A DNA stretch of 32,000 bases from Nostoc punctiforme PCC 73102 (GCF_000020025.1 NC_010628.1:3090001-3122000), one strand, 5' to 3'; positions 3,948 through 29,240 are shown, counted from the stretch's first letter. The notes: generated from the letters alone by a model not told the origin. Translations and numbers: made by a program.

Positions 3948-4772
3948 ATGGAAGCTGAAGAAGCATTAGAGTCTATTAAGCAAATATTTAAGGAGAGAAA
4001 AGGAAACTTAGCATCACTGGGCAAGTTAGAAGAAAAAGTTTTTCTACTAAGTTGGCAAGGGATGAATTATAGTCAAATGCCTTCTAAAATAAAGAGGTCT
4101 AATCCTACTGCCAAACCATATACAGAACAGTATTTAAAAGAAATAGGTAAAAGTTTAAACGATAAGATTAAAAGAGTATTAAATATAGACGATCTTGATA
4201 AAAGAAATTTGAGAGAAGAACTTGAAAACTTTTTTGAGAGAAATTACAATTACTCTACTAAAAAACTATCTTATACCACTGCGCCAGAACCAGATTATAC
4301 TACTTCTCCAGAGTTAACTAATAATACTGTATCTGAGCTAAATCAAAATCCCTTCATTCCTTTTAGTGGCAGAGTAGAAGAAAAGTATCTATTTTTTGAC
4401 CGAGAGCGCGAAATCCGGCGAATATTTGAGGTACTGAATAGTGGTAGCGGACTAATTTTAGCGATCGCATTTGTTACTTCGGCGATCGCATTTGCTATTT
4501 CGGAGTTCGCATTTGTTATTTCAGCGATCGCATTTGTTACTTTGGAGTTCGCATTTGTTACTTCGGAGTTCGCATTTGCTATTTCGGAGTTCGCATTTGT
4601 TACTTCGGAGTTCGCATTTGTTACTTCGGGATTCGCATTTGTTATTTCGGGATTCGCATTTGTTACATCGGAGTTCGCATTTGCTATTTCAACGATCGCA
4701 TTTGCTATTATTGAGGGCTTATCTTCTCAAACTCCGAGGGTCGAGTGCATCTCTCAGCCCATCACCGAGTAA
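3948..4772 (+). pseudogene. Remnant of an HTH/STAND-type ATPase gene; only the N-terminal ~165 aa look native and the rest of the ORF is tandem-repeat-encoded
   Basis: The N-terminus has a LuxR/sigma-70 region 4-like HTH (LEEKVFLLSWQGMNYSQM...YTEQYLKEIGKSLNDKIKRVL). NPFIPFSGRVEEKYLFFDREREIRRIFEVLNSGSG follows, which is the segment that normally precedes Walker A in cyanobacterial STAND/AAA ATPases. No GKS/T P-loop follows. From 4461 the frame runs through a 21-bp repeat array, giving (EFAFVTS)n. Confidence 0.55.
4461..4712. repeat. Tandem array, 12 x 21 bp (consensus GAGTTCGCATTTGTTACTTCG; some units begin with HIP1 GCGATCGC)
   Basis: Units were counted directly: 4461, 4482, 4503 ... 4692. 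The array ends 7 nt before the stop of the convergent permease gene at 4719. All three + frames stay open, giving EFAFVTS and SHLLLRS repeats. Confidence 0.95.
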
Positions 4773-8878: not shown

Positions 8879-8963
8879 AGGAATGGGGAATGGGGAATGG
8901 GGAATGGGGAATGGGAGAAATGACTAATGACTAATGACTAATGACCAATGACCAATGACAAAT
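8879..8963. repeat. Two adjacent STRR-type heptamer arrays: (AATGGGG)x~5, then (AATGACT/AATGACC/AATGACA)x6
   Basis: Read directly from the sequence. TGACCAA is the complement of TTGGTCA, one of the STRR heptamers known from heterocystous cyanobacteria. The arrays lie in the MFP-RND intergenic spacer. Confidence 0.9.
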
Positions 8964-8983: not shown

Positions 8984-11900
8984 ATGTCCTTTAATATCTC
9001 AGCTTGGTCGATTAAAAAACCTGTTCCTACGATAGTTTTATTTTTAATTTTGACGGTTGTGGGTTGGTTCTCCTTTTTATCCTTGGGGATTGATACTAAC
9101 CCAAATATTGATGTCCCAACAGTTTCGATCAAAGTCACCCAACCAGGTGCAGGCCCAGCCGAACTAGAATCCCAAGTGACGAAAAAAATTGAAGATGCCG
9201 TCGCGGGGTTGGGCAATATCGATTTTATGATTTCCACCGTCAGCGATGGGAATTCTAAGACGACAATCAACTTTGTTTTGGGTACAGATAGCGATCGCGC
9301 CACCAATGATGTCCGCAATGCGATCGCTCAAATTCGCCAAGATTTACCCCAAGAGATCAACGATCCAATTGTGGAACGTCTAGACTTTGCCGACGGCCCG
9401 GTGATTACTTACGCGGTTAAATCAGATAAGCGTTCTGTAGAAGAGTTAAGCAATATTGTCGATCAAACTATTAGCCGCGCCTTATTGGGAGTCCGTGGTG
9501 TCGCCCAAATTCAACGTGTGGGTGGAGTTGACCGAGAAATTCGGATTAATCTGAGTCCCAGCCGCTTACAATCTCTGGGTATCACCGCCACTCAGGTAAA
9601 CGACCAAATCCGCGATTTAAACATTAACTTACCTGGCGGACGGGCTGAAGTCGGCGGTAGCGAACAAAGTATCCGCACATTAGGAAGTGCCGCCAGTGTG
9701 GATATTTTGAAAACCTACGAAATCCTCTTACCACAAGGCGGTTCCGTACCATTATCCAGTTTGGGAACTATAGAAGATAAATTTGGTGACGTGCGCCAAG
9801 CTGCTACCTTAAATAATCAACCTGTGGTAGCTTTCCAAGTGTTGCGTAGTACTGGCAGCGTTCTGGTGACAGTAGAACAAGGAGTGAAAGCAGCTGTCAA
9901 AGAACTGGAAAAAACACTTCCCGCAGATGTCAAACTAGATTTGATTTTTACTAGAGCCGATGTTGTTCGCCAATCATACCAAAGCACTATTGATGAATTA
10001 ATTCAAGCTTCGGTGCTGGCTGTCATCGTTATTTTAGTATTTTTGCGGGACTGGCGAGCAACATTAATTACGGCTGTTGCTTTACCATTGTCAATAATTC
10101 CCACTTTCGCAGTGCAGCAAGCCCTTGGTTACACCCTCAACAACATGACTTTGTTGGCATTAGCGCTGGCGGTGGGCAACTTGGTAGATGATGCCGTGGT
10201 GGAAATTGAAAACATGGAACGGCATATCGCTATGGGCAAATCAGCTTGGGATGCTGCTTTTGAATCTGCCGACGAAGTAGGATTAGCGGTAATCGCAAGT
10301 TCAGCAACGATTATTGCCGTGTTTATGCCCGTTGCTTTTATGGGTGGGATTCCGGGACAATTTTTCCAACCATTTGGTGTTACCGTTGCCGTTTCCACAA
10401 TTTTCTCAACTCTTGTCGCGCGGATGGTTACACCGATGATGGGGGCGTATCTTTTAAAAGAGGCAGGGGAGCAGGGGAGCAGGGGAGCAGGGGAGCAGAG
10501 GGAGCAGAGGGAGCAGAGGGAGCAGAGGGGCAGGGGAGCAGGGGGAGTAATAAGATTGTTTAATTTCAAGTTTGCAATCCCAGGTAGAAAGCAGGGAAAC
10601 AGAACACTCAGAACTGACAACCGTCGGGGGTTTCAACCTTATAGATCGTTATTACAATGGGCGTTACGCCATAGATTGACCACAATGGCGATCGCTTTAG
10701 CTTTCTTCATTGCCAGTCTGATGCTGGTTCCTTTAATTCCCAAGGGTTTCGTTGATGATGGCGACTTTGGGATTTCTAACGTATCTATAGAACTACCTCC
10801 AGGTTCGACATTAGAAGACGTTAATAAGGTAGTCACACAGGCAACTGATATCATTCGGCAAAACCCAGTAGTTGAACGTGTACTAGCAACCGAAGAGATC
10901 AATTCTGCAAGCCTGGCAATTAATCTCAAACCTAGAGAAGAACGAAAGATTTCTCAAAAACAGTTTGAGGAACAAGTACGCCCTGACTTTGAGCAAATAC
11001 CAGGAGCGAGAATTAGTTTTCAAAGTCAGTCACCAGGCGACAGTCGGAAGGGTTTATCAATTGTTCTCAGAAGTGAAAATCCCGAAGCATTGAATCAAGC
11101 GGCTGATGCCCTAGAAAAGCAAATGCGATCGCTACCAGGATTGGTAGAAGTGTCTTCGACTGCAAGCTTGGTGAAACCAGAGATTTTAGTAATTCCTAAC
11201 CCACAACGGGCAGCAGATTTGGGAGTGACAGTACAAGCGATCGCTCGGACAGCTTCTCTGGCCACCATCGGCGATAATGAGGCCAACTTGGCAAAATTTA
11301 ATTTAAGCGATCGTCAAATCCCGATTCGCGTACAAATCGATCCGAAAGTGCGGGCTGACATTAACACAATCACAAATCTGCAAGTCCTCAGTCAAAATGG
11401 CAAATTGATTCCCCTAGTGGCAGTTGCAGATATCCGTTTTGGTAGTGGCCCTGCAACCATCAACCGTTACGATCGCGCCCGTCAAGTTGCCGTAGAAGCC
11501 AATTTACAAGGGATTTCTTTGGGAGAGGCAGTAGAAACAATCAACAAACTACCTGTGATGCAAAACTTACCGCCAGGGGTAGTACAGCAACCCTCCGGTA
11601 GCGCCAAAATTATGCAAGAAATTTTTGGGCGCTTTGGTGGCGCGTTAGGGCTGGCATTAATGTGTATCTATGCGATTCTGGTGTTGCTGTATAACAACTT
11701 TCTGCATCCATTATCGATTATGGCGGCCTTGCCCTTTTGTTTAGGCGGCGCACTGGTGGCGTTGATGGTTGCTCAAAAACCATTGGGGATATATGCCTTG
11801 ATTGGTATCGTGTTGCTGTTGGGGATTGTCACCAAAAACTCAATTCTGTTGGTGGATTATACAATCATCAACATCCAAGAAGGCAAAACTCAGCGTCAGG

Positions 11901-12525: not shown

Positions 12526-12918
12526 ATGCCCTTTCTCGTAACCCTGAGTGCAGAAGAACGACGTAACTTATTTAAAATGGGCGATAAAAGACTAGCTTTT
12601 GTCAACAATAGCCTGATTGCTGCCCAATCTAACCGAGACATTTTACCAGCCAGCTTTGATTTAGATGAGTTCATCCGGGATTATCAACTAGCCGCCACGC
12701 TTACCGAAGTTTTGATTGGACTGCGACAACTGACAGAACAAGTAGATGATACCTTAATGGCAGTTGGTAGCGAAGCAATGGGCAGCAGTTTGACAGTTTA
12801 TGATTACGTCAAGACAGCTGCTAAGAAAACTCCAGGGTTAAAAATAATAGCTGAACAATTAGGCGAACGCTTTAAAGCGATTAAAAAGAAACCTGCTAAA
12901 GCTGCTGTCGATTCTTAA
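12526..12918 (+). CDS. Conserved hypothetical protein; possibly N-terminally truncated by an in-frame TAA at 12490-12492
   Basis: 130-aa ORF. In the same frame upstream, ATG 12442 gives MAYQNITASLSPADIQ-stop-IKAAFATIQAK, which runs directly into MPFLVTL... and reads like native protein. Confidence 0.6.
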   Translation: MPFLVTLSAEERRNLFKMGDKRLAFVNNSLIAAQSNRDILPASFDLDEFIRDYQLAATLTEVLIGLRQLTEQVDDTLMAVGSEAMGSSLTVYDYVKTAAKKTPGLKIIAEQLGERFKAIKKKPAKAAVDS

Positions 12919-12919
12919 A

Positions 12920-13133
12920 GGATTTTTTAAAAGCCTTTAGTGATGTAGCAAATACTTTGAGATCCCCCTAAATCCCCCTTAAAAAGGGGGACTTTGACTC
13001 CGGTTCCCCCCTTCTTTAAGGGGGGTTAGGGGGGATCTCCAATGACTATGCACAAAAAGCGTGACTTTGACTCCGGTTCCCCCCTTTTTTAAGGGGGGTT
13101 AGGGGGGATCTCGAATGACTATGCACCAAAACC
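12920..13133. repeat. Dispersed hairpin element copy A (+ orientation) with an internal ~73-bp tandem duplication
   Basis: The run tagtgatgtagcaaatactttgagatccccctaaatcccccttaaaaagggggactttg matches copy C. The gactttgactccggttcccccc...ggggggatctc.aatgactatgcac block occurs twice (12990-13062 and 13063-13133). Confidence 0.85.
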
Positions 13134-13171: not shown

Positions 13172-13558
13172 ATGACAAATAAACTCAATAGCAGCAATCA
13201 CCATTTACCTTACAATCCAAAGCTTGTAGAAAGAGCGAAAGAACTTCGTAAAAATATGACCCCAGCAGAAAAAAAGCTGTGGTATGAATATTTGAGAAAT
13301 TTTCAATTTCGGGTTTTAAGACAACGACCGATTAATCATTTCATAGTTGATTTCTACTGTCCTACTTTAAAAATAGTGATTGAAGTTGATGGGGATAGCC
13401 ATTTTACAGATGAAAGTCAAGAGTACGATCTAGAGAGAACAAACATTTTGGAAGGCTATGGTTTAAAGATTATTAGGTTTACAAATAGTCAAGTTTTAAA
13501 TCACTTTGATAGTGTGTGTGAGCAGATACAGCGTCTGATCCCCCCTAGCACCCCTTAA
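13172..13558 (+). CDS. DUF559 (Vsr-like) endonuclease domain protein
   Basis: 128-aa ORF with the typical DUF559 run: MTPAEKKLWYEYLRN...FRVLRQRPINHFIVDFYCPTLKIVIEVDGDSH...DLERTNILEGYGLKIIRFTNSQV. The last ~8 codons and the stop lie inside repeat copy B. Confidence 0.85.
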   Translation: MTNKLNSSNHHLPYNPKLVERAKELRKNMTPAEKKLWYEYLRNFQFRVLRQRPINHFIVDFYCPTLKIVIEVDGDSHFTDESQEYDLERTNILEGYGLKIIRFTNSQVLNHFDSVCEQIQRLIPPSTP

Positions 13559-13745: not shown

Positions 13746-13780
13746 AGTTTCCTAAGCAAAATGAGATGTATCTTTTGGTC

Positions 13781-13890
13781 AATGAACCTCAGAACTTTGT
13801 GAATGAACCTCAAAGCATCGGCGATGAACCTCAGAGCTTTGTGAATGAACCTCAAAGCATCGGCGATGAACCTCAGAGCTTCGTTAATGA
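13781..13890. repeat. Tandem array, ~5 x 21 bp (AATGAACCTCARARCWTYGKB), inside a 50-codon ORF (13766-13918)
   Basis: The NEP/DEP codon triplets recur at 13781, 13802, 13823, 13844 and 13865, with a degenerate copy at 13886. The ORF reads MYLLV(NEPQNFV)(NEPQSIG)(DEPQSFV)(NEPQSIG)(DEPQSFV)NESLILAHEH. Confidence 0.9.
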
Positions 13891-13999: not shown

Positions 14000-16900
14000 A
14001 TGCTCACCATACCCCGCCACACCAGCAGATCGCTCTTTTTCCTTTTCTGTTTCACCCTACTCCTAACTCTCTTCCTCTCCCTACCTTGGGTAAACGCCAA
14101 AGAAACCCCCAAACCCAAACCCCAAGATTGGCAGATTAACGGTATAGTAGCCGCCCTTGATGACGGACACGACCAAGTTAAGAAATCTGCTTTTGACAAA
14201 CTCAATGAATATGATTTGCAAAATTTAAAATCAGTAGTTGAGAAACCAGAAAATATTGCTGACAAAGCCTTCAACATCCTCAAGGATAAATCCGTTGACA
14301 GTGATGTTCGTTCCAGTGCAGCAGTGGCATTGGGAAATCTGGGGGAGGCTGCCAAACCCTACGTCAAAGACATCCTCGACATCCTCAAGGATAAATCCGT
14401 TGACATTAATGTTCGTTCCAGTGCAGCAGAGGCATTGGGAAATCTGGGGGAGGCTGCCAAACCCTACGTCAAAGACATCCTCGACATCCTCAAGGATAAA
14501 TCCGTTGACAGTGATGTTCGTTCCGGTGCAGCAAAGGCATTGGGAAATCTGGGGGAGGCTGCCAAACCCTACGTCAAAGACATCCTCGACTTCCTCAAGG
14601 ATAAATCCGTTGACAGTTATGTTCGTTCCGATGCAGCAGAGGCATTGGGAAATCTGGGGGAGGCTGCCAAACCCTACGTCAAAGACATCCTCGACTTCCT
14701 CAAGGATAAATCCGTTGACAAAGATGTTCGTTCCGGTGCAGCAGAGGCATTGGGAAATCTGGGGGAGGCTGCCAAACCCTACGTCAAAGACATCCTCGAC
14801 TTCCTCAAGGATAAATCCGTTGACAAAGATGTTCGTTCCGGTGCAGCAGAGGCATTGGGAAATCTGGGGGAGGCTGCCAAACCCTACGTCAAAGACATCC
14901 TCGACATCCTCAAGGATAAATCCGTTGACAGTTATGTTCGTTCCGGTGCAGCAGAGGCATTGGGAAATCTGGGGGAGGCTGCCAAACCCTACGTCAAAGA
15001 CATCGCCGACATCCTCAAGGATAAATCCGTTGACAGTAATGTTCGTTACGGTGCAGCATCGGCATTGGGAAATCTGGGGGAGGCTGCCAAACCCTACGTC
15101 AAAGACATCCTCGACTTCCTCAAGGATAAATCCGTTGACAGTGGTGTTCGTTCCGGTGCAGCAGTGGCATTGGGAAATCTGGGGGAGGCTGCCAAACCCT
15201 ACGTCAAAGACATCCTCGACATCCTCAAGGATAAATCCGTTGACATTAATGTTCGTTCCAGTGCAGCAGAGGCATTGGGAAATCTGGGGGAGGCTGCCAA
15301 ACCCTACGTCAAAGACATCGCCGACATCCTCAAGGATAAATCCGTTGACAGTGGTGTTCGTTACGGTGCAGCAGTGGCATTGGGAAATCTGGGCGATGCT
15401 GCCAAACCCTACGTCAAAGACATCCTCGACTTCCTCAAGGATAAATCCGTTAACAGTTATGTTCCTTACGGTGCAGCAGTGGCATTGGGAAAGATAAAAC
15501 AACTCGAATTAAATGAGATTGTGGTAATTCTGGATAGCGTCTATTACGCAGGTCAATCAGAATTTGCACGGTGGCGATTTTTAACCTATTTCCTTGGTGG
15601 CGGCACTGATGAAGTCAAAACACTGCTTACATGGCTGGGGTTTCCTAAAAAAATTCCTGCTTCCTTACCCCATGACCAAGGCGTGAAAACTCTCAACATC
15701 TTTGCCCAAGCCTGGGAACCCAGCCAAGATTTTGCTCGATTACGGGAAGACTTAGCCAAACAAATCGCTGTAGTCGCCAGAAAAGTCTCTTGGCAACCCC
15801 AAGATATTGTTATTTTAGAAACTCACTACAAAAACCTCAAAAAAGCAGGATACAGTGAAACCGACTCACTGCAAGCAGCCATAGTTAACCTCAAAGGTTG
15901 GCAGTGGTTTTTCAACGCCAGAATCACCATCCTCACTCACGCTGCCTTCTGGCTTCTCCTCATCTTTGCCTACCCCAAATCCCCCCAAATCCAAGCCATC
16001 TTCTTCTGGAACCCGTGGGTACGCCGTATTCTCGGCATGGGCTACGTCGGCTTTCTCCTCACCTGGGTTCCCTTTTTCCGCCGCAAATTACTTGAACCCT
16101 TCAAGCCTTCCCTGTTAGCCGATGCCGGGTTAGATAACTTTCATGACCAATCATACTTCCCCCAGTCGCAAGTCAAAGTTACTTCGGGCGACATCCTCCC
16201 CATTACCGCCGCCCTCCCCAGCATCAAAGGACAAATCATCTTAGAAGGTGATTCTGGCTTAGGCAAGTCGATGTTTCTCCGCCATCTGTTGCAAAATCAA
16301 GAGCGCATTGTTGTTTACCTCCCCGCCCAAAAATGCGATAAAGGCGTAATCGAAGCCATTCAAGAAAAGCTACACGGGCAAGCCCAAGATGCGGGCTTCC
16401 TGAAAAACCTGATTTACAGTGGTGCAATTGACATCTGCATCGACGGACTCAACGAAGTCACCGCCGAAACACGGGCGAAAATCTGTCAGTTTGTCGAAAG
16501 CTATTTCCGGGGCAACATTATTATGACAACCCAGCCCCTAGAGTGGACACCACCCTCAACCGCCAAAACCTATTATTTGCAACCCTTAGAACAAAGCCAA
16601 ATTCAAGAATTTTTGCTTTCCCGCCAGCAGCGACTCCCCAAAGATGCCAAAATTCAAGGCGCTGATTACGCCCAAGCCTGCACCAATTATTTAACAGAAG
16701 TCCTCAAAGACCAACAAGCTCAAGAAGAATTAGAGGCTGCCCGTCGCATTCTCTCCAATCCAATGGATTTAACTGTAGTTGCCTTGATGTTATCCCAAGG
16801 CAAACATCCTAATTTATTCCGCCTGCAAGAACAGCAATACAACTTAATGGCGGCAGAATACCTCAAAGAATGGAATCAAGAATTTCCCTTAAAGAAATTC

Positions 16901-17302
16901 TCCGCCGCCGTCTACGAAATGCGACTCCAAGACAAACAAGCCTTACCCGCCGATGAATTTCACCAAGTCGCCATGTCTTTGTCAGACGAGAAATACAAAA
17001 TGGTAGTCAGCCGTCAGTGGCAAGATGACAAAGGTGAAGCCAAAAAAGAATGGTACTTCCGCCACGATAAAATCATGGACTTCTTCTTAGTGCAGAACTT
17101 TTTGGGCGAAACTGATGCCGCCGAAGGACTATTAGTTGATAGAATGGGCGATCCGCGTTTTCGTGGCGTTTATTTCTTGCTAGCAACCTTACTTCCTTTA
17201 GATGCAGCCAAAGAACTGCGAGAAGATTTGATTCAATACGCGGCTGATACCAAAGACAATACGGTGAGTAATACCTTTGTACAGTTGTTACGGACTAGAT
17301 AA
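14000..17302 (+). CDS. Large membrane-associated protein with an N-terminal hydrophobic/signal-like segment, 12 HEAT-like repeats, two hydrophobic segments and a NACHT-like P-loop NTPase (STAND type)
   Basis: ATG at 14000; the ORF track starts at an in-frame TTG at 13988. The signal-like N-terminus is SLFFLFCFTLLLTLFLSLPWVNA. Twelve 35-aa repeats read LKDKSVDxxVRxxAAxALGNLGEAAKPYVKDILD. Hydrophobic segments are ITILTHAAFWLLLIFAY and ILGMGYVGFLLTWVPFF. NTPase motifs are Walker A GDSGLGKS (~16247-16270), Walker B IDICIDGLNEV (~16430-16460), IIMTTQP (TSRP-like) and ..WYFRHDKIMDFFLVQ (winged-helix-like). Confidence 0.85.
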   Translation: MLTIPRHTSRSLFFLFCFTLLLTLFLSLPWVNAKETPKPKPQDWQINGIVAALDDGHDQVKKSAFDKLNEYDLQNLKSVVEKPENIADKAFNILKDKSVDSDVRSSAAVALGNLGEAAKPYVKDILDILKDKSVDINVRSSAAEALGNLGEAAKPYVKDILDILKDKSVDSDVRSGAAKALGNLGEAAKPYVKDILDFLKDKSVDSYVRSDAAEALGNLGEAAKPYVKDILDFLKDKSVDKDVRSGAAEALGNLGEAAKPYVKDILDFLKDKSVDKDVRSGAAEALGNLGEAAKPYVKDILDILKDKSVDSYVRSGAAEALGNLGEAAKPYVKDIADILKDKSVDSNVRYGAASALGNLGEAAKPYVKDILDFLKDKSVDSGVRSGAAVALGNLGEAAKPYVKDILDILKDKSVDINVRSSAAEALGNLGEAAKPYVKDIADILKDKSVDSGVRYGAAVALGNLGDAAKPYVKDILDFLKDKSVNSYVPYGAAVALGKIKQLELNEIVVILDSVYYAGQSEFARWRFLTYFLGGGTDEVKTLLTWLGFPKKIPASLPHDQGVKTLNIFAQAWEPSQDFARLREDLAKQIAVVARKVSWQPQDIVILETHYKNLKKAGYSETDSLQAAIVNLKGWQWFFNARITILTHAAFWLLLIFAYPKSPQIQAIFFWNPWVRRILGMGYVGFLLTWVPFFRRKLLEPFKPSLLADAGLDNFHDQSYFPQSQVKVTSGDILPITAALPSIKGQIILEGDSGLGKSMFLRHLLQNQERIVVYLPAQKCDKGVIEAIQEKLHGQAQDAGFLKNLIYSGAIDICIDGLNEVTAETRAKICQFVESYFRGNIIMTTQPLEWTPPSTAKTYYLQPLEQSQIQEFLLSRQQRLPKDAKIQGADYAQACTNYLTEVLKDQQAQEELEAARRILSNPMDLTVVALMLSQGKHPNLFRLQEQQYNLMAAEYLKEWNQEFPLKKFSAAVYEMRLQDKQALPADEFHQVAMSLSDEKYKMVVSRQWQDDKGEAKKEWYFRHDKIMDFFLVQNFLGETDAAEGLLVDRMGDPRFRGVYFLLATLLPLDAAKELREDLIQYAADTKDNTVSNTFVQLLRTR
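14270..15495. repeat. Intragenic tandem repeat, ~11.6 x 105 bp (HEAT-like units), with very high nucleotide identity
   Basis: GCCAAACCCTACGTCAAAGAC recurs every 105 nt (14351, 14456, 14561 ...). It generates spurious long ORFs in the other + frame and on the - strand. Confidence 0.95.
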
Positions 17303-19213: not shown

Positions 19214-19333
19214 GAGTCAAGCACAATAAGGATGAAGCAAGAAATAATTCTGTCTCGATTTTCACCTTTATCTGTCCATCTTTTACAAAAACCCTACGGA
19301 AAGAAACATTAACTATAAAAAAATCTACCCATA

Positions 19334-19408
19334 GGGGGAAGGGGAGAAGGGGGTAGGGGAGCAGGGGGCAGGGGGTAGGGGAAGCAGGGGGAGCAAGGGG
19401 AGCAAGGG
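19334..19408. repeat. G-run-rich tandem repeat, (GGGG/GGGGG separated by 2-5 nt) x ~10, upstream of the kinase gene
   Basis: Read directly: gggggaaggggagaagggggtaggggagcagggggcagggggtaggggaagcagggggagcaaggggagcaaggg. Confidence 0.9.
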
Positions 19409-19505
19409 AAGAAAAACTATTGATTATTAGCCCATTCCCCATACTTCGACTGCGCTCAGTACAAGTTCCTTATGCCCAATTCCCAATGCCCTATGCCCAA
19501 ATAAA

Positions 19506-26556: not shown

Positions 26557-27783
26557 ATGGTTCGAGAGCTAGAAAAAAAACGCCAGAGTGCAAAGTTTCC
26601 CGAAACAGCACCGGCTGCTAATCCCGTATTTTTTAGAACCTATAGCCGCCGGACTAAGGCGGGACTAAGGGAAACATGGGATGAGGTATGCGATCGCACT
26701 CTCCTCGGCTTAGTCGAGTTGGGAAAGCTCACTCAAGAAGAAGCTGCCATACTGGATAAGATGCAGCGCAACTTGAAAGCTATGCCCAGTGGACGCTGGC
26801 TATGGGTTGGTGGCACAGACTGGATAACCAAACCAAAGAACTTTTCCGGCGCTTATAATTGCACCTCTACCAATCTCGAAGACTGGAGTGCCTTCGGATT
26901 AATGATGGATCTGGCAATGATGGGCTGTGGTACTGGAGCCGTCCTAGAACCACAATTTATTAACCAGTTGCCCCCTATTCGTAATCAACTGAATGTTACT
27001 GTACAAGGTGAAATTGGCAGCACTCCTGTGCAACAGCGACGTGAATATACTCAAACTCATATAGAAGGCAATAAGGTCACTATTCACGTTGGAGATAGCC
27101 GTGAAGGTTGGGTTGAATCATATCAAGCCCTATTAGAACTCTCTACTGATGAACAGTTTTCAGCAGCAGTTGAAGTATTAGTTGATATCAGCGATGTCCG
27201 AAAAGCGGGAGAAACTCTCAACGGCTTTGGAGGAGTTGCTAATCCTGTGAAATTACCCGGACTTTATCAGCGTTGTGCTTCCATCCTGAGTAAAGCTGTA
27301 GGACGACAATTAAGTTCAGTTGAATGTTGTTTGTTAATCGATCAAGCTGCTGTAACAATTGTTGCAGGTAATATCCGAAGAAGCGCGGGGATGCGTCAGT
27401 TTATTGCTGACGATGAACAAGGAGCTACTGCCAAAGATAACTTATGGCAGCAAGATGAAAATGGCAATTGGCGAATCGATCCAGAGCGTGATGCACTCAG
27501 GATGGCAAACCATACCAGAGTTTTTCACCGAAAACCAACCTTAGAAGAATGTCTGAATGCTGTCCGCAAACAGTATTATAGCGGCGAGGGAGCGATTCAA
27601 TGGGCTGGTGAAGCCGTAGCGCGATCGAACATTGATTTGCTGCCAACACAAGCTTTGAAAGTTGAATTTTTACAAGCTTATGAACAAGGAACAGCAAAAC
27701 AGTGGTTAGAAGAACGTTATTCAAATCTTGATGCTAATGAGTTAGAACATCGTTTAGCTCGCTATGGGCTAAATCCGTGTGGT
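26557..27783 (+). CDS. nrdJ: Adenosylcobalamin-dependent ribonucleoside-triphosphate reductase (class II RNR), exon 1
   Basis: The N-terminus ..FPETAPAANPVFFRTYSRR.. is typical of cyanobacterial NrdJ. The exon ends at ..GLNPCG, the first part of the catalytic NPCGEI motif. The genomic frame then hits TGA after one more codon. Confidence 0.85.
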
Positions 27784-28166
27784 AAGTGATTTTGCCTCAC
27801 GTTAAAAACCTCGCAAAAACGGGGAAAGCTGAGATGCTAATCCCGTGGTAATCAAAGGAATTAAAAAGTCTTTGACACCGTACAGCGTAGAGAGTGAAAC
27901 TAGATAACATCAGAAATTTGTGTCTAGAATATAATCTCTCCAAGAGTGCGGGGGTGGATGTGAAAAACACTTGTGTTGAGCGGCTTTCCCTGAGCGTAGC
28001 CGTAAAGCCTGCGGCATAGCTACGCTTAGGGCGCAGCCTCTCGTAGAGAAGGGAGCCGAAACACTTTTATTATCTGAAGTCACATCTGCAAAAGGTACGC
28101 GGAGCTACTGCAAATAATCAAGCAGTAGAACTAGGGGATAAAAAGCCTCTAGGGTAACAAAGAAAG
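27784..28166 (+). other. Group I-type intron (383 nt, no ORF) interrupting nrdJ
   Basis: The 5' exon ends in U (27783) and the intron ends in G (28166). GCCUCAC (27794-27800) pairs with 5' exon GUGUGGU (27777-27783), including a U-G wobble at the splice site (P1). The immediately adjacent GAUUUU (27788-27793) pairs with 3' exon GAAAUC (28167-28172) (P10). Several internal stems are visible. Joining the exons restores NPCG-EIIGSNFHCNLSEV in frame. Confidence 0.75.
27972..28064. repeat. Hairpin dispersed repeat (MITE-like) nested in the intron
   Basis: The termini gtgttgagcggctttccc and gggagccgaaacac are imperfect inverted repeats. There is an inner palindrome gcgtagc...gctacgc. The core is shared with the kinase insert at 18845-18905. 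Confidence 0.75.
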
Positions 28167-29240
28167 GAAATCATCGGCAGTAATTTCCACTGCAATTTGT
28201 CAGAGGTTCACCTCAATCAAATCGACCCACGTAACTACAAAGAACAAGAAGAGGCTTTCACTGCTGGGGCGCTATCTGTAGCAGCACTTTTAAATCACAA
28301 ATTCTTGGAACCACGCTATCAATACAGCCGTGAATTAGACCCGATTGTGGGAGTTTCTTTTACAGGTTTATTTGATTTCTTTGTCCATGCTTTTGGTGTT
28401 GATTGGTTGCGCTGGTGGGAAGCAGGAAGACCTGCAACACCCCAAGGATTAGCTTTCAAGCGTGAGGAAGAAAAATATCTAAGCTCTTGGAAAGATATTG
28501 TACATCGTGTAGTTTGGGATTATTGCGATCGCCACAATCTCAAACGTCCAAATCGCTGTACCACAGTCCAACCCAGTGGTACTAAGGCTTTGTTAACTAA
28601 TGCTAGTTCAGGATGGCATCCCCCCAAAGCCCAAAGATTTATTCGCCGCATCACCTTCGGCAAAAATGATCCAGTAGCTTTAGCCTGTATTGACTACGGT
28701 TACAATGTCATTCCCTCACAATCAGACAAAGATGAACAGGGCAATTTGCTCAACGATCCCTTTGATTCACGGGTGAGTGAATGGCTAGTAGAAATCCCTG
28801 TTTCTGTATCTTGGGCAGATTTACCAGGTGCTGATGAAATTGATGTTTCTAAGTTTTCAGTCTTAGCCCAATTTGATTTTGTCCTCCAGGTTCAACGCTG
28901 GTATGTGACTCACAATACATCAGCTACTTTGGAACTGCGTTCTGATGAAATCGAACCTTTGGGACAGAAAATCTATGAAACTATTCAGAGCGATCGGGGA
29001 TATATTTCAGCAGCTCTTTTAGCTCGTTTTGATGACTTGCAATCATTCCCACGTTTACCATTTGAACCAATAGACAAACCAACCTACGAGCGCTTGAATC
29101 AAGAGGTGAAAACACGGCGGAAAACAGATGATTTCTGTGCAGTCTTAAGCCGCTACGATTTAGGTGAAATGTCAGAGGCTGGCCCTAGTGGTTGTGATTC
29201 TGATAAATGTATGTTTCCCGATCAGCAACCAAGCTCATAA
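28167..29240 (+). CDS. nrdJ: Class II ribonucleotide reductase, exon 2
   Basis: Same frame as track ORF 28197-29240, extended upstream to EIIGSNFHCNLSEVHLN. The C-terminus carries the redox cysteine pair (..GCDSDKC..). Confidence 0.85.
   Translation, partial: EIIGSNFHCNLSEVHLNQIDPRNYKEQEEAFTAGALSVAALLNHKFLEPRYQYSRELDPIVGVSFTGLFDFFVHAFGVDWLRWWEAGRPATPQGLAFKREEEKYLSSWKDIVHRVVWDYCDRHNLKRPNRCTTVQPSGTKALLTNASSGWHPPKAQRFIRRITFGKNDPVALACIDYGYNVIPSQSDKDEQGNLLNDPFDSRVSEWLVEIPVSVSWADLPGADEIDVSKFSVLAQFDFVLQVQRWYVTHNTSATLELRSDEIEPLGQKIYETIQSDRGYISAALLARFDDLQSFPRLPFEPIDKPTYERLNQEVKTRRKTDDFCAVLSRYDLGEMSEAGPSGCDSDKCMFPDQQPSS

What the first reader, a model, noticed from the sequence alone, without database searches (positions are those of the whole stretch)
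14270..15495. Twelve near-identical 105-bp HEAT-like repeats that differ almost only by nonsynonymous changes at the same few codons
Aligned by eye, the 35-aa units are (I/F)LKDKSVD[xx]VR[xx]AA[x]ALGNLGEAAKPYVKDI(L/A)D.
- The adjacent residue pair after VD runs SD, IN, SD, SY, KD, KD, SY, SN, SG, IN, SG, SY.
- The pair after VR runs SS, SS, SG, SD, SG, SG, SG, YG, SG, SS, YG, YG.
- The residue after AA is V, E, K, E, E, E, E, S, V, E, V, V.
- Apart from the degenerate last unit, the rest of each unit is essentially unchanged, including third-codon positions. The only synonymous change I noticed is GGG>GGC in unit 11.

Near-zero silent divergence with variation confined to a fixed set of positions is what repeat proteins with a programmable or diversifying recognition surface show; TALE repeat-variable diresidues are the conceptual parallel. 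Plain decay of duplicated units would not give this pattern. The variable positions flank the conserved VR..AA.ALG helix of PBS-lyase-type HEAT repeats, so they should line up on one face of the solenoid.
Basis: seen in the sequence. Interest (0 to 1): 0.8.

Follow-up and report, generated by a model that had tools for sequence, protein, structure and literature searches.

The report
Hypervariable HEAT sensor of membrane NACHT protein
A filamentous cyanobacterium carries twelve almost identical 35-residue HEAT repeats that differ only at a few surface positions; they form the fast-evolving binding face of a membrane-anchored relative of NOD-like immune receptors, a pattern known from fungal receptors but, in the literature I could search, not described for this protein family.

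Summary
In-frame 105-bp units start at 14276: 11 full units plus a degenerate twelfth. Units 1-11 have 14 variable nucleotide columns, one of them synonymous.

The variation sits on codons 9, 10, 13, 14 and 17, with dimorphic codons 1 and 34. These five codons lie on one face of helix A. They align exactly with the randomised binding positions of artificial alphaRep HEAT binders.

The gene (14000-17302) encodes signal peptide, HEAT array, helical linker, transmembrane segment and a C-terminal NACHT-type STAND NTPase. The NTPase fold matches NLRC4, NLRP3 and NOD2.

Relatives across Nostocales have 2-14 extractable units and almost entirely private variable residues. In 23 independent arrays, pN exceeds the silent rate only at codons 9, 10, 13, 14, 17 and 34 (ratio 2.5, CI 2.05-3.11).

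One array is shared at 96-98% identity by two gene backbones that differ at pS 0.54, so arrays move between copies.

A retroelement (DGR) origin is rejected: no reverse-transcriptase-like motif or template copy was found, and synonymous adenines are invariant.

Best reading: repeat reshuffling plus diversifying selection on a ligand-binding face, as in fungal NLR repeats. The new features are the HEAT repeat type and a probably periplasmic sensor placed N-terminal to the NACHT module. The ligand and output are unknown.

The parts
14000..17302 (+). Whole gene (1100 aa from ATG 14000; the ORF lister starts at TTG 13988): signal peptide, HEAT array, helical linker, transmembrane region, NACHT-type NTPase
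   Evidence: ORF list; Pfam HEAT_2 at 1.5e-55 and weak AAA_22/AAA_16; coordinates checked
14000..14098 (+). Signal-peptide-like N-terminus (aa 1-33, MLTIPRHTSRS-LFFLFCFTLLLTLFLSL-PWVNA|KE)
   Evidence: Hydropathy peak of 2.24. N-terminal hydrophobic segments followed by small-residue motifs that resemble signal-peptidase sites (my reading of the printed N-termini) recur across the family. Cleavage and export are inferred, not shown.
14099..14275 (+). N-terminal helical region preceding the array (possible N-cap)
   Evidence: Helices in the AF2 model; only 50-87% aa identity to relatives
14276..15430 (+). Eleven complete 105-bp (35-aa) HEAT-like units. Hypervariable codons are 9, 10, 13, 14 and 17 of each unit; codons 1 and 34 are dimorphic.
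   Evidence: pLDDT about 90, with helix A spanning unit positions 9-21 and helix B spanning 23-35 plus the next unit's 1-3
15431..15535 (+). Twelfth unit, degenerate from codon 21 onward (probable C-cap of the solenoid)
   Evidence: The same truncated terminal unit (HMM positions 1-21) is present in most relatives inspected.
15536..15916 (+). Helical linker domain between the array and the membrane segment
   Evidence: AF2 helices at pLDDT 62-70; 53-84% aa identity to relatives
15917..15973 (+). Transmembrane helix (aa 640-658, ARITILTHAAFWLLLIFAY)
   Evidence: Hydropathy. A hydrophobic segment about 110 aa before the Walker A is conserved in most of the 150 representatives.
16028..16078 (+). 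Second, weaker hydrophobic segment (aa 677-693, ILGMGYVGFLLTWVPFF) flanked by RR and RRK; possibly re-entrant or peripheral
   Evidence: mean K+R of 2.2 before and 3.2 after; the topology is inferred
16247..16270 (+). Walker A motif (GDSGLGKS, aa 750-757)
   Evidence: G, S, G, G and K are invariant in alignments A1 and A2
16427..16456 (+). Walker B motif (IDICIDGLNE, aa 810-819), resembling the NACHT signature D[GAS]hDE
   Evidence: signature definition taken from 10.1101/2022.07.19.500537
16112..17299 (+). NACHT-type STAND NTPase module as modelled (aa 705-1100)
   Evidence: AF2 model with pLDDT 89.4 and pTM 0.82. Foldseek top hits are NLRC4, NLRP3 and NOD2 at E 4e-10 to 1e-7 and TM about 0.6. 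A sequence profile has NLRC4 as best PDB hit at E 0.0027.

Best explanation
The array encodes the ligand-binding surface of a membrane-anchored NLR-like receptor found mainly in filamentous cyanobacteria. Each 35-residue unit is a helix-turn-helix HEAT module. Residues 9, 10, 13, 14 and 17 project from one face of helix A, so eleven stacked units give a continuous stripe of about 55 variable side chains on the concave face of the solenoid.

Shown here:
- The units are kept nearly identical at the DNA level while copy number changes between relatives.
- Whole arrays are exchanged between diverged gene copies.
- Amino-acid changes at the surface codons accumulate faster than silent changes.
- The C-terminal module has the NACHT fold.

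Inferred:
- Homogenisation occurs by unit duplication, deletion and recombination (unequal crossing-over or gene conversion).
- Diversifying selection retains new binding specificities.
- The array is exported to the periplasm, a single membrane span follows it, and the NACHT NTPase is cytoplasmic.
- Ligand binding outside the cell would switch the NTPase into an oligomeric active state, as in other STAND proteins.

The ligand (phage component, competitor product or kin signal) and the output are unknown. No effector domain is present in the protein.
For: The pattern is real and clustered: window scaffold pS 0.008 against hypervariable pN 0.311.

Family-wide behaviour:
- 658 homologues were found; the top 120 are Nostocales plus Microseira and Trichocoleus. 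Full-length sizes step by 35 aa.
- Extractable arrays hold 2-14 units.
- There are 262 distinct five-residue variable signatures, and only 15 are shared between loci. Eight of the window's nine signatures are private.
- In 23 arrays (199 units, window excluded), pN over the overall pS exceeds 1.5 only at codons 9, 10, 13, 14, 17 and 34. The five-codon ratio is 2.52 (bootstrap CI 2.05-3.11) against 0.50 for the scaffold.
- At hypervariable codons 10, 13, 14 and 17 the third position is conserved while positions 1-2 vary.

Orthologous test: the collinear arrays L013 and L047 give hypervariable pN 0.161 against scaffold pS 0.069 (Fisher P = 0.016).

Array exchange: the same pair is 96-98% identical over units 1-7, 62-86% over the rest of the gene, and has C-terminal pS 0.538.

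Binding face: the best PDB sequence hits are alphaRep binders, with position-for-position alignment of the variable sites. Those sites lie on the concave face, through which the binder contacts its target in a solved complex (PMC3754942). The AF2 solenoid has pLDDT about 90 and matches alphaRep-7 (4zv6) at TM 0.80.

NACHT module.

Conserved architecture: an N-terminal hydrophobic signal, a HEAT ectodomain (37 of 45 distant members) and a membrane segment about 110 aa before the Walker A.

Precedent: fungal NLR WD, ANK, TPR and HEAT repeats show the same syndrome (PMC4986451; 10.1101/2020.01.06.895854).
Against: - No functional data exist, and the gene matches no PADLOC or NCBIfam model.
- The domain order (repeats N-terminal, NACHT C-terminal, no effector) is the reverse of canonical NLRs.
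- The topology is uncertain. A second hydrophobic segment exists, and the K+R counts around the first membrane segment do not clearly favour out-to-in insertion.
- pN/pS estimates on recombining repeats are approximate, and the window alone gives only P = 0.085 for the nonsynonymous excess.
- The closest syntenic relative (L004; MurE 99.4% aa identical) has a degenerate, heterogeneous array, so high homogeneity is not a constant property of the locus.
- Silent divergence of unit scaffolds between some species (0.03-0.09) is far below the 0.30-0.54 measured in the neighbouring gene and the C-terminal domain. Within-lineage concerted evolution cannot explain this; it needs inter-genome exchange or nucleotide-level constraint.
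Confidence: 0.7

Rival explanations
1. Targeted hypermutation by a diversity-generating retroelement (DGR) or a similar templated mechanism: a reverse transcriptase copies a template repeat with adenine-specific errors into the units.
For: Every hypervariable nucleotide column in the window includes A among its states (my rough chance estimate is about 1%, post hoc). DGRs that diversify STAND-associated sensors are reported in multicellular bacteria (PMC10907252, listed; abstract only, not read). Unit scaffolds are unusually conserved at silent sites between species, as an invariant template would produce.
Against: - No reverse transcriptase appears among the window's ORFs, and no RT-like motifs occur in the window or in 80 related loci, about 1 Mb in total.
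- There is no unit-like copy outside the array.
- Only 3 of 28 consensus adenines vary. The adenines at freely synonymous third positions lying between and just after the hypervariable codons (GCA GCA GCA GGA; columns 45, 48, 54, 60) are invariant in all 11 units.
- Family-wide, A is not the dominant state at most variable positions, and residues such as K, W, E and Q occur, so there is no AAY-type design.
- The target is a tandem HEAT array, not the single C-type-lectin or Ig variable region that, to my knowledge, DGR targets normally carry.
Confidence: 0.03
2. Very recent amplification of one unit followed by neutral change at unconstrained surface positions (relaxed constraint, no positive selection).
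For: Units 5 and 6 are identical and units 2 and 10 differ by 2 nt, showing recent duplication. In the window alone the nonsynonymous excess is not significant (P = 0.085). Surface positions of solenoids tolerate substitution.
Against: - Neutral sites cannot diverge faster than silent sites, yet hypervariable pN is 0.311 against pS 0.008-0.012 in the window.
- In 23 other arrays the ratio is 2.5 times the silent rate, with a bootstrap CI that excludes 1.
- In the collinear orthologue pair it is 0.161 against 0.069.
- Third positions of hypervariable codons 10, 13, 14 and 17 stay conserved.
- Other exposed scaffold positions, such as the K and D residues, do not vary.
Confidence: 0.1
3. Assembly artefact: the near-identity, the copy number or the combinations of variable residues result from collapse or chimeric joining of reads from several paralogous arrays.
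For: By my count from the locus table, roughly 30-35 of the 80 related loci have a contig end within about 1 kb upstream of the C-terminal match, where the array lies, and many database proteins are labelled 'partial'. The exact protein is not on record, and the neighbouring MurE is on record only on contigs under 2 kb. Several genomes hold at least two paralogues.
Against: The window's array is in frame throughout, with a coherent cap unit. The same pattern, with the same variable codons, recurs in many independent assemblies, including L043 from Nostoc carneum NIES-2107, whose record is titled 'nearly complete genome'. Collapse would change unit number and order, but it would not create codon-specific variation.
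Confidence: 0.07
4. The HEAT array is a housekeeping scaffold or adaptor (for example a PBS-lyase/NblB-type bilin or phycobiliprotein binder, or an envelope-assembly factor). On this view its variable positions track co-evolution with an endogenous partner, not with non-self.
For: Source annotations include 'PBS lyase' and Pfam HEAT_PBS matches. A copy sits in a conserved chromosomal context (RND pump, orf130, [DUF559], gene, histidine kinase, MurE) in several genomes. No known defence model matches.
Against: - NblB and lyase NCBIfam scores are far below their cut-offs (49 bits against 300).
- A signal peptide, a membrane segment and a NACHT module do not fit a cytoplasmic lyase.
- An endogenous partner would not favour 262 nearly private signatures, unit-to-unit diversity within one protein and copy-number variation from 2 to 14.
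- The gene evolves much faster than its neighbours. Against L004, MurE is 99.4% and AcrB 96% aa identical, while this gene is 76-87%.
Confidence: 0.12

Closest known systems
Fungal NLR repeats with high internal conservation (HET-E/HET-D/NWD family WD40; ANK, TPR and HEAT arrays of Podospora NLRs; Paoletti 2007, Chevanne 2010, Dyrka 2014)
   Same: - Near-identical tandem units attached to a NACHT/STAND NTPase.
- Repeat-number polymorphism.
- A handful of positively selected positions on the concave binding face.
- Repeat exchange within and between family members.
Sources: PMC4986451; here.
   Different: - Bacterial (Nostocales), not fungal.
- HEAT/PBS-type 35-residue units.
- The repeats are N-terminal to the NACHT, separated from it by a membrane segment, and probably extracytoplasmic.
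- No N-terminal effector domain.
- No known incompatibility or defence phenotype.
Artificial alphaRep HEAT-like binder libraries (Urvoas 2010; Guellouz 2013)
   Same: Same repeat family, with the core motif DxxVRxxAAxALG. The natural hypervariable positions 9, 10, 13, 14 and 17 align exactly with library positions 18, 19, 22, 23 and 26. The fold matches at TM 0.80 to 4zv6. Both have a variable number of identical-scaffold modules.
   Different: - alphaReps are synthetic 31-residue consensus modules, whereas these are natural 35-residue units.
- alphaRep position 30 is also randomised; the corresponding residue here (N21) is invariant in the window.
- Codon 34 varies here but not in alphaRep.
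Bacterial NACHT (bNACHT) and other STAND antiphage proteins (Kibby et al.; Avs)
   Same: A NACHT-fold NTPase. That paper reports that 58% of cyanobacteria encode NACHT proteins and that genomes with three or more tend to be multicellular. It lists HEAT, TPR and LRR arrays as 'antigen receptor-type' domains, and TM-containing forms proposed to sense periplasmic or membrane signals (10.1101/2022.07.19.500537).
   Different: There is no PADLOC hit and Pfam NACHT is not detected. The sensor is N-terminal and there is no effector domain. Hypervariability within a near-identical array was not described there, as far as I could read.
TALE repeat-variable diresidues
   Same: Near-identical tandem repeats of about 34-35 residues whose specificity residues sit at fixed positions.
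   Different: This is a different fold family, with five or six variable positions on a helix face where TALEs have two in a loop. There is no evidence for nucleic-acid binding or a one-repeat-one-symbol code. The protein has a signal peptide and a membrane anchor.
Diversity-generating retroelement targets in multicellular bacteria
   Same: Hypervariable putative antigen sensors linked to STAND-type conflict systems in cyanobacteria (PMC7159879; PMC10907252, abstract).
   Different: No RT-like motif, no template repeat and no adenine bias were found, and the fold is not C-type lectin. Diversity here is germline, spread across tandem units, and moved by recombination.

Membership tests
HEAT / PBS-lyase-type alpha-solenoid repeats | Significant match to HEAT-family profile HMMs | tested here: met
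   Pfam HEAT_2 at 1.5e-55 (185.9 bits against a cut-off of 27.7) and HEAT_PBS at 5.8e-36
HEAT / PBS-lyase-type alpha-solenoid repeats | Helix-turn-helix units stacked into a solenoid | tested here: met
   The AF2 model has pLDDT about 90 in the array and two helices per 35-aa unit. Foldseek hits are importin-beta, CAND1 and alphaRep-7 (4zv6: TM 0.80, rmsd 3.3, 37% identity).
NACHT clade of STAND NTPases | P-loop with Walker A GxxxxGK[ST] | tested here: met
   GDSGLGKS at aa 750-757; invariant across alignments A1 and A2
NACHT clade of STAND NTPases | Walker B with the D[GAS]hDE signature | tested here: inconclusive
   The window has DGLNE, with N in place of the first acidic residue; one family member has DGLDE. 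Signature definition.
NACHT clade of STAND NTPases | NBD, helical domain and winged-helix domain architecture resembling solved NACHT proteins more than other AAA+ proteins | tested here: met
   Foldseek: NLRC4, NLRP3 and NOD2 at E 4e-10 to 1e-7 and TM about 0.6 over 410-470 columns. The next tier is ORC/Cdc6 and Avs4 at about 1e-5 and TM about 0.3.
NACHT clade of STAND NTPases | Match to the curated Pfam NACHT model or an NCBIfam model | tested here: not met
   Only AAA_22 and AAA_16 matched, both below their cut-offs. NCBIfam gave no hit for the C-terminal 601 aa. A sequence profile against the PDB gives NLRC4 at E 0.0027 only. Some sources nevertheless name fragments 'NACHT domain-containing protein'.
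NACHT clade of STAND NTPases | Nucleotide-dependent oligomerisation and signalling | not testable with these tools
   Needs biochemistry
NLR-type sensor repeats with high internal conservation under diversifying selection | Repeat units more than 85% identical to each other | tested here: met
   Units 1-11 differ pairwise by 0-10 of 105 nt
NLR-type sensor repeats with high internal conservation under diversifying selection | Repeat-number polymorphism among alleles or orthologues | tested here: met
   2-14 extractable units among relatives; protein lengths step by 35 aa. True alleles of the same species were not available.
NLR-type sensor repeats with high internal conservation under diversifying selection | A few codons with nonsynonymous rate above the silent rate | tested here: met
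   Codons 9, 10, 13, 14, 17 and 34 have pN/pS of 2.25-2.79; the five-codon CI is 2.05-3.11. The orthologous pair test gives P = 0.016. The estimates are Nei-Gojobori proportions, not recombination-aware models.
NLR-type sensor repeats with high internal conservation under diversifying selection | Selected sites map to the ligand-binding face | tested here: met
   The sites align to alphaRep binding positions, lie in helix A within a 140-degree arc.
NLR-type sensor repeats with high internal conservation under diversifying selection | Exchange of repeats between gene copies | tested here: met
   The L013 and L047 arrays are 96-98% identical on backbones with pS 0.54
NLR-type sensor repeats with high internal conservation under diversifying selection | Canonical order: N-terminal effector, central NOD, C-terminal repeats | tested here: not met
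   The order here is signal peptide, repeats, TM segment, NACHT, with no effector domain
Diversity-generating retroelement target | Reverse transcriptase and template repeat; adenine-specific variation | tested here: not met
   No RT among the window's ORFs and no RT-like motif in 32 kb or in 80 loci; no template copy; synonymous adenines invariant. The rest of the genome was not available.
TALE-like programmable repeats | Two specificity residues per repeat in a loop, each reading one nucleotide | tested here: not met
   Five or six variable positions on a helix face, a HEAT fold, and a protein with an export signal and membrane anchor
Phycobilisome lyase / NblB HEAT proteins | Match above the cut-off to an equivalog model | tested here: not met
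   NblB scores 49.3 bits against a cut-off of 300; the putative lyase PRK09687 scores 48.2 against 275
Catalogued antiphage defence systems (PADLOC) | Match to a PADLOC model | tested here: not met
   No hit for the C-terminal 601 aa

The most novel reading that the evidence does not exclude
This family is a transmembrane NLR. An exported, germline-encoded hypervariable HEAT solenoid would sense extracellular or periplasmic non-self, such as phage receptor-binding or injection proteins, competitor toxins or kin signals. It would signal across the membrane to a cytoplasmic NACHT switch. The sensor arrays would be drawn from a pool of units and whole arrays that is exchanged between paralogues and between Nostoc genomes. 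That exchange would explain why unit scaffolds are about 10-fold less diverged at silent sites than the rest of the genome.
Probability: 0.3. Interest if true: 0.8.

Novelty: new variant of a known kind. Interest (0 to 1): 0.6.

Why it matters
To my knowledge, NLR/STAND receptors studied so far sense ligands inside the cell. A family whose hypervariable sensor lies outside the membrane would extend that paradigm and give a tractable bacterial model for outside-in NACHT signalling.

The arrays are also a natural counterpart of the alphaRep binder library. Evolution has sampled hundreds of combinations on the same five positions that protein engineers chose to randomise. This natural repertoire could inform binder design.

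The evidence for array swapping between deeply diverged gene backbones, and for unit scaffolds conserved at silent sites across species, bears on how bacteria generate receptor diversity without dedicated mutators.

In practice these arrays break short-read assemblies, so the family is systematically truncated in databases.

Tried and rejected
- DGR hypothesis. I pursued it after noticing that every hypervariable column includes A. It was rejected on invariant synonymous adenines, the absence of an RT motif or template copy, and the family codon spectra.
- Positional orthology between the window's units and those of L007 or L013: none found.
- Homogenisation between paralogues of the same genome: the comparisons were uninformative because several arrays were out of phase or too short.
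- A sharp island of identity at the array borders between the window and L007: not clear-cut, with the array at 90-94% and the rest of the gene at 80-92%. The L013/L047 pair does show it.
- My first regex for extracting units was too strict and was replaced by a unit HMM. About six arrays remained out of phase and were excluded.
- NCBIfam and PADLOC gave nothing for the NTPase.
- Model coordinates are not exposed, so the 3D mapping rests on secondary structure, helical-wheel geometry and alphaRep homology.
- Exact-sequence look-ups of the protein failed with both start codons. The neighbouring MurE is on record only on contigs under 2 kb. The source genome and same-species alleles could therefore not be examined.
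- Rfam found nothing in the window.
Full report
**1. The observation**

Tandem Repeats Finder gives a single array at 14274-15492 with period 105, 11.6 copies and 94% matches. It lies inside one long ORF, 13988/14000-17302 on the + strand. In that frame the units start at 14276. Units 1-11 are complete, and unit 12 follows the consensus for 20 codons and then diverges.

Units 1-11 have 14 variable nucleotide columns, in these codons:
- codon 1 (I/F)
- codon 9 (S/I/K)
- codon 10 (D/N/Y/G)
- codon 13 (S/Y)
- codon 14 (S/G/D)
- codon 17 (V/E/K/S)
- codon 23 (the single synonymous change)
- codon 24 (E>D, once)
- codon 34 (L/A)

Within the array, Nei-Gojobori pS is 0.008 for the 30 scaffold codons and pN is 0.311 for codons 9, 10, 13, 14 and 17.

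The bare count of 14 nonsynonymous to 1 synonymous variant codons is only marginal (P = 0.085), because there are few events. The clustering is highly non-random:
- 9 of 14 variable columns lie in five codons (P = 2.5e-6, post hoc).
- 7 of the 8 amino-acid-variable codons are among the seven most variable codons across the 29 arrays, which include the window's own (P = 1.2e-6). The window-free analysis singles out six of the same codons.
- Positions 1-2 of the hypervariable codons vary in 8 of 10 cases, against 3 of 35 third positions (P = 3e-5).

**2. The gene**

From ATG 14000 the product is 1100 aa. It has the following parts:
- A classical-looking signal peptide (positively charged n-region, hydrophobic core, PWVNA|KE).
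- A short helical region.
- The 12-unit array.
- A helical linker of about 125 residues.
- A strongly hydrophobic segment at aa 640-658.
- A weaker hydrophobic segment at aa 677-693, flanked by RR and RRK.
- A P-loop NTPase with Walker A GDSGLGKS and Walker B IDICIDGLNE.

Pfam recognises only the HEAT repeats confidently. NCBIfam and PADLOC do not recognise the C-terminal half.

An AF2 model of the C-terminal 396 aa, built with 17 diverse homologues, is confident (pLDDT 89.4, pTM 0.82). Its best structural matches are NLRC4, NLRP3 and NOD2 (E 4e-10 to 1e-7, TM about 0.6 across about 410-470 columns). ORC/Cdc6, Avs4 and clamp loaders follow well behind. A sequence profile also has NLRC4 as its best PDB hit (E 0.0027). 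I therefore treat it as a divergent NACHT-type STAND module. The Walker B signature D[GAS]hDE is only partly kept (DGLNE).

**3. The family**

The NTPase module alone finds 741 representatives at E of 0.001 or better among 1.84 billion 50%-identity clusters. In the 150 best, the architecture recurs: an N-terminal hydrophobic signal, an ectodomain of 200-1300 aa, a hydrophobic segment about 110 aa before the Walker A, and the NTPase at the C-terminus.

Even among 45 members that my unit HMM matched in at most two stretches, 37 carry Pfam HEAT repeats. The juxtamembrane sequence is among the most conserved parts of the protein.

N-termini across the family look like Sec signal peptides followed by small-residue motifs that resemble signal-peptidase sites; that is my reading of the sequences printed. 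The second hydrophobic segment has basic residues on both sides. The topology that best fits is an exported HEAT domain, one membrane span, a re-entrant or peripheral second segment, and a cytoplasmic NACHT. I rate this at about 0.65. It is inferred, not shown.

**4. The variable positions form one face**

The AF2 model of the array (pLDDT about 90) gives, per unit, a loop (positions 4-8), helix A (9-21) and helix B (23-35 plus positions 1-3 of the next unit). Positions 9, 10, 13, 14 and 17 have the i, i+1, i+4, i+5, i+8 spacing. That places them within a 140-degree arc of helix A.

The closest solved sequences are artificial alphaRep binders (4xl5_C at E 6e-22, and others). HMMER aligns the window's variable positions exactly onto the alphaRep library positions, DxxVRxxAAxALG. 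According to Guellouz et al. 2013, positions 18, 19, 22, 23, 26 and 30 were randomised to mimic natural variability. They lie on the concave face through which the binder contacts its target in a solved complex (PMC3754942). The model also superposes on alphaRep-7 (4zv6; TM 0.80, rmsd 3.3 Å, 37% identity).

**5. Relatives**

The C-terminal 601 aa has 658 homologues. The top 120 are Nostocales plus Microseira and Trichocoleus, at 71-90% identity, and full-length sizes step by 35 aa.

A scan of one genome per species returned 191 relatives, of which 80 loci were kept. Several genomes hold two copies. By my count from the locus table, roughly 30-35 of these contigs end within about 1 kb upstream of the C-terminal match, where the array lies.

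Extracted arrays have 2-14 in-phase units. The scaffold xLKDK(S/T)VDxxVRxxAAxALGNLGEAAKPYVKDI(L/A)D is conserved, and the residues at 9, 10, 13, 14 and 17 differ everywhere. There are 262 distinct five-residue signatures, only 15 of them shared between loci. Eight of the window's nine signatures are private.

**6. Selection**

Over 23 in-phase arrays (199 units, window excluded), within-array pN divided by the overall silent rate exceeds 1.5 at exactly six codons: 9, 10, 13, 14, 17 and 34 (range 2.25-2.79). The five helix-A codons together give 2.52 (bootstrap over arrays 2.05-3.11), and the scaffold gives 0.50.

At hypervariable codons 10, 13, 14 and 17 the third position is conserved (T 80%, C 65%, T 93%, G 84%) while positions 1-2 vary. 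This is the signature of selected amino-acid replacement on a homogenised background, not of locally raised mutation.

L013 and L047 provide a clean orthologous test. Their nine units are collinear, and hypervariable pN is 0.161 against scaffold pS 0.069 (Fisher P = 0.016).

**7. Array dynamics**

The window's array is the most homogenised of those examined, with scaffold pS of 0.008 against 0.02-0.45 elsewhere. Units 5 and 6 are identical, and units 2 and 10 differ by 2 nt.

The closest syntenic relative is L004 (Nostoc sp. LEGE 12447), with MurE 99.4%, AcrB 96% and orf130 96% aa identity. It carries a heterogeneous, partly degenerate 13-unit array, and its gene is only 76-87% identical. The homogenised array is therefore lineage-specific and recent, and the gene evolves much faster than its neighbours.

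L013 and L047 are 96-98% identical over units 1-7. They are only 62-86% identical over the rest of the gene, are unalignable outside it, and have C-terminal pS of 0.538. The same array therefore sits on two deeply diverged backbones.

More generally, unit scaffolds of the window differ from those of several other species by pS 0.03-0.09. The adjacent C-terminal domain differs by 0.35-0.52 and the neighbouring orf130 by 0.30-0.32. Other arrays are at background divergence (0.35-0.58).

Within-lineage concerted evolution does not lower long-term silent divergence. This pattern therefore needs transfer of units or arrays between loci and genomes, or nucleotide-level constraint. I favour transfer, because diverged arrays exist. 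Transfer also parallels the exchanges within and between family members described for fungal NWD genes (PMC4986451). This part remains only partly explained.

**8. Retroelement alternative**

I noticed that every hypervariable column includes an A state and took the DGR idea seriously. The evidence argues against it:
- No reverse transcriptase appears among the window's ORFs.
- No RT-like motif occurs in the window or in about 1 Mb of related loci, and there is no unit-like copy outside the array.
- Only 3 of 28 consensus adenines vary.
- The adenines at fully synonymous third positions lying between and just after the hypervariable codons (GCA GCA GCA GGA) are invariant in all 11 units, although adenine mutagenesis would change them at no cost.
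- The family codon spectra do not fit AAY-type templates.

**9. Comparison with what is known**

The syndrome consists of near-identical sensor repeats on a NACHT/STAND protein, copy-number polymorphism, a few positively selected sites on the concave face, and inter-copy exchange. It is well described for fungal NLRs with WD, ANK, TPR and, in Podospora, HEAT arrays (PMC4986451). It has been noted for WD and TPR repeats of bacterial NLRs (10.1101/2020.01.06.895854).

Bacterial NACHT proteins with HEAT, TPR or LRR 'antigen receptor-type' domains, and with TM regions proposed to sense periplasmic signals, are catalogued in 10.1101/2022.07.19.500537. My literature searches found no description of three things:
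- this HEAT-TM-NACHT family;
- its hypervariable alphaRep-like face;
- the inverted, probably outside-in architecture.

I classify it as a new variant of a known kind.

**10. Limits**

- There is no experimental evidence for function, ligand, topology or output.
- The pN/pS values are uncorrected proportions on recombining repeats.
- Six arrays were excluded for phase problems.
- The window's source genome and same-species alleles were not found, so strain-level polymorphism and assembly correctness remain untested.

Noticed in passing
L013:5990-6934 and L047:5990-6934: Two Nostoc genomes carry collinear nine-unit arrays that are 96-98% identical over units 1-7. They sit on gene backbones with silent divergence 0.54, in different genomic contexts, which indicates transfer of a whole array between diverged copies.
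   Followed up: yes
window 14276-15430 compared with L007, L013, L047 and L067: Unit scaffolds are 5-10 times less diverged at silent sites between species (pS 0.03-0.09) than the adjacent C-terminal domain (0.35-0.52) or the neighbouring gene orf130 (0.30-0.32). Within-lineage concerted evolution does not explain this.
   Followed up: partly
L004:5357-8806: The closest syntenic relative (Nostoc sp. LEGE 12447; MurE 99.4% aa identical) has a heterogeneous, partly degenerate 13-unit array. Its gene is only 76-87% identical to the window's, far more diverged than the flanking genes.
   Followed up: partly
window 13778-13890: A 42-bp tandem repeat (2.6 copies, 95% matches; also read as period 21) lies in the intergenic region about 110 bp upstream of the HEAT-NACHT start codon. 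Its function is unknown.
   Followed up: no
window 12981-13131: A 73-bp direct repeat (2.1 copies, 93% matches) with G-rich runs lies between orf130 and the DUF559 endonuclease-like gene.
   Followed up: no
window 12526-12918: A 130-aa ORF with no Pfam or PADLOC match is conserved at 86-96% aa identity immediately upstream in the syntenic lineage of the HEAT-NACHT gene and is absent next to the other paralogue lineage. The DUF559 gene (13172-13558) is inserted between them in only some genomes.
   Followed up: partly
window 10463-10547: An 8-9-bp G-rich tandem repeat inside the AcrB-like RND pump gene encodes an in-frame low-complexity insert (GEQGSRGAGEQREQREQREQRGRGAGG).
   Followed up: no
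window 4455-4709: A tandem repeat of period 21, 42 or 63 bp (11.5 copies at period 21) lies inside ORF 3948-4772, which has no Pfam match. It sits between the ABC transporter permease genes.
   Followed up: no
window 26557-29240: The B12-dependent ribonucleotide reductase looks fragmented. ORF 26557-27789 matches only the N-terminal alpha and insertion domains. It is followed by a 400-bp gap and then by ORF 28197-29240, which has no Pfam hit. This could be an intein, an intron or a frameshift. Rfam found nothing there.
   Followed up: no
window 14231-15502 (- strand) and 14238-15497 (+ strand, other frame): Both alternative frames stay open through the whole array (423 and 419 aa). This is a mechanical consequence of a stop-free repeat unit and is not evidence of overlapping genes.
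   Followed up: no
window 19332-19409 and 8880-8963: Short heptamer and G-rich tandem repeats occur in intergenic regions.
   Followed up: no
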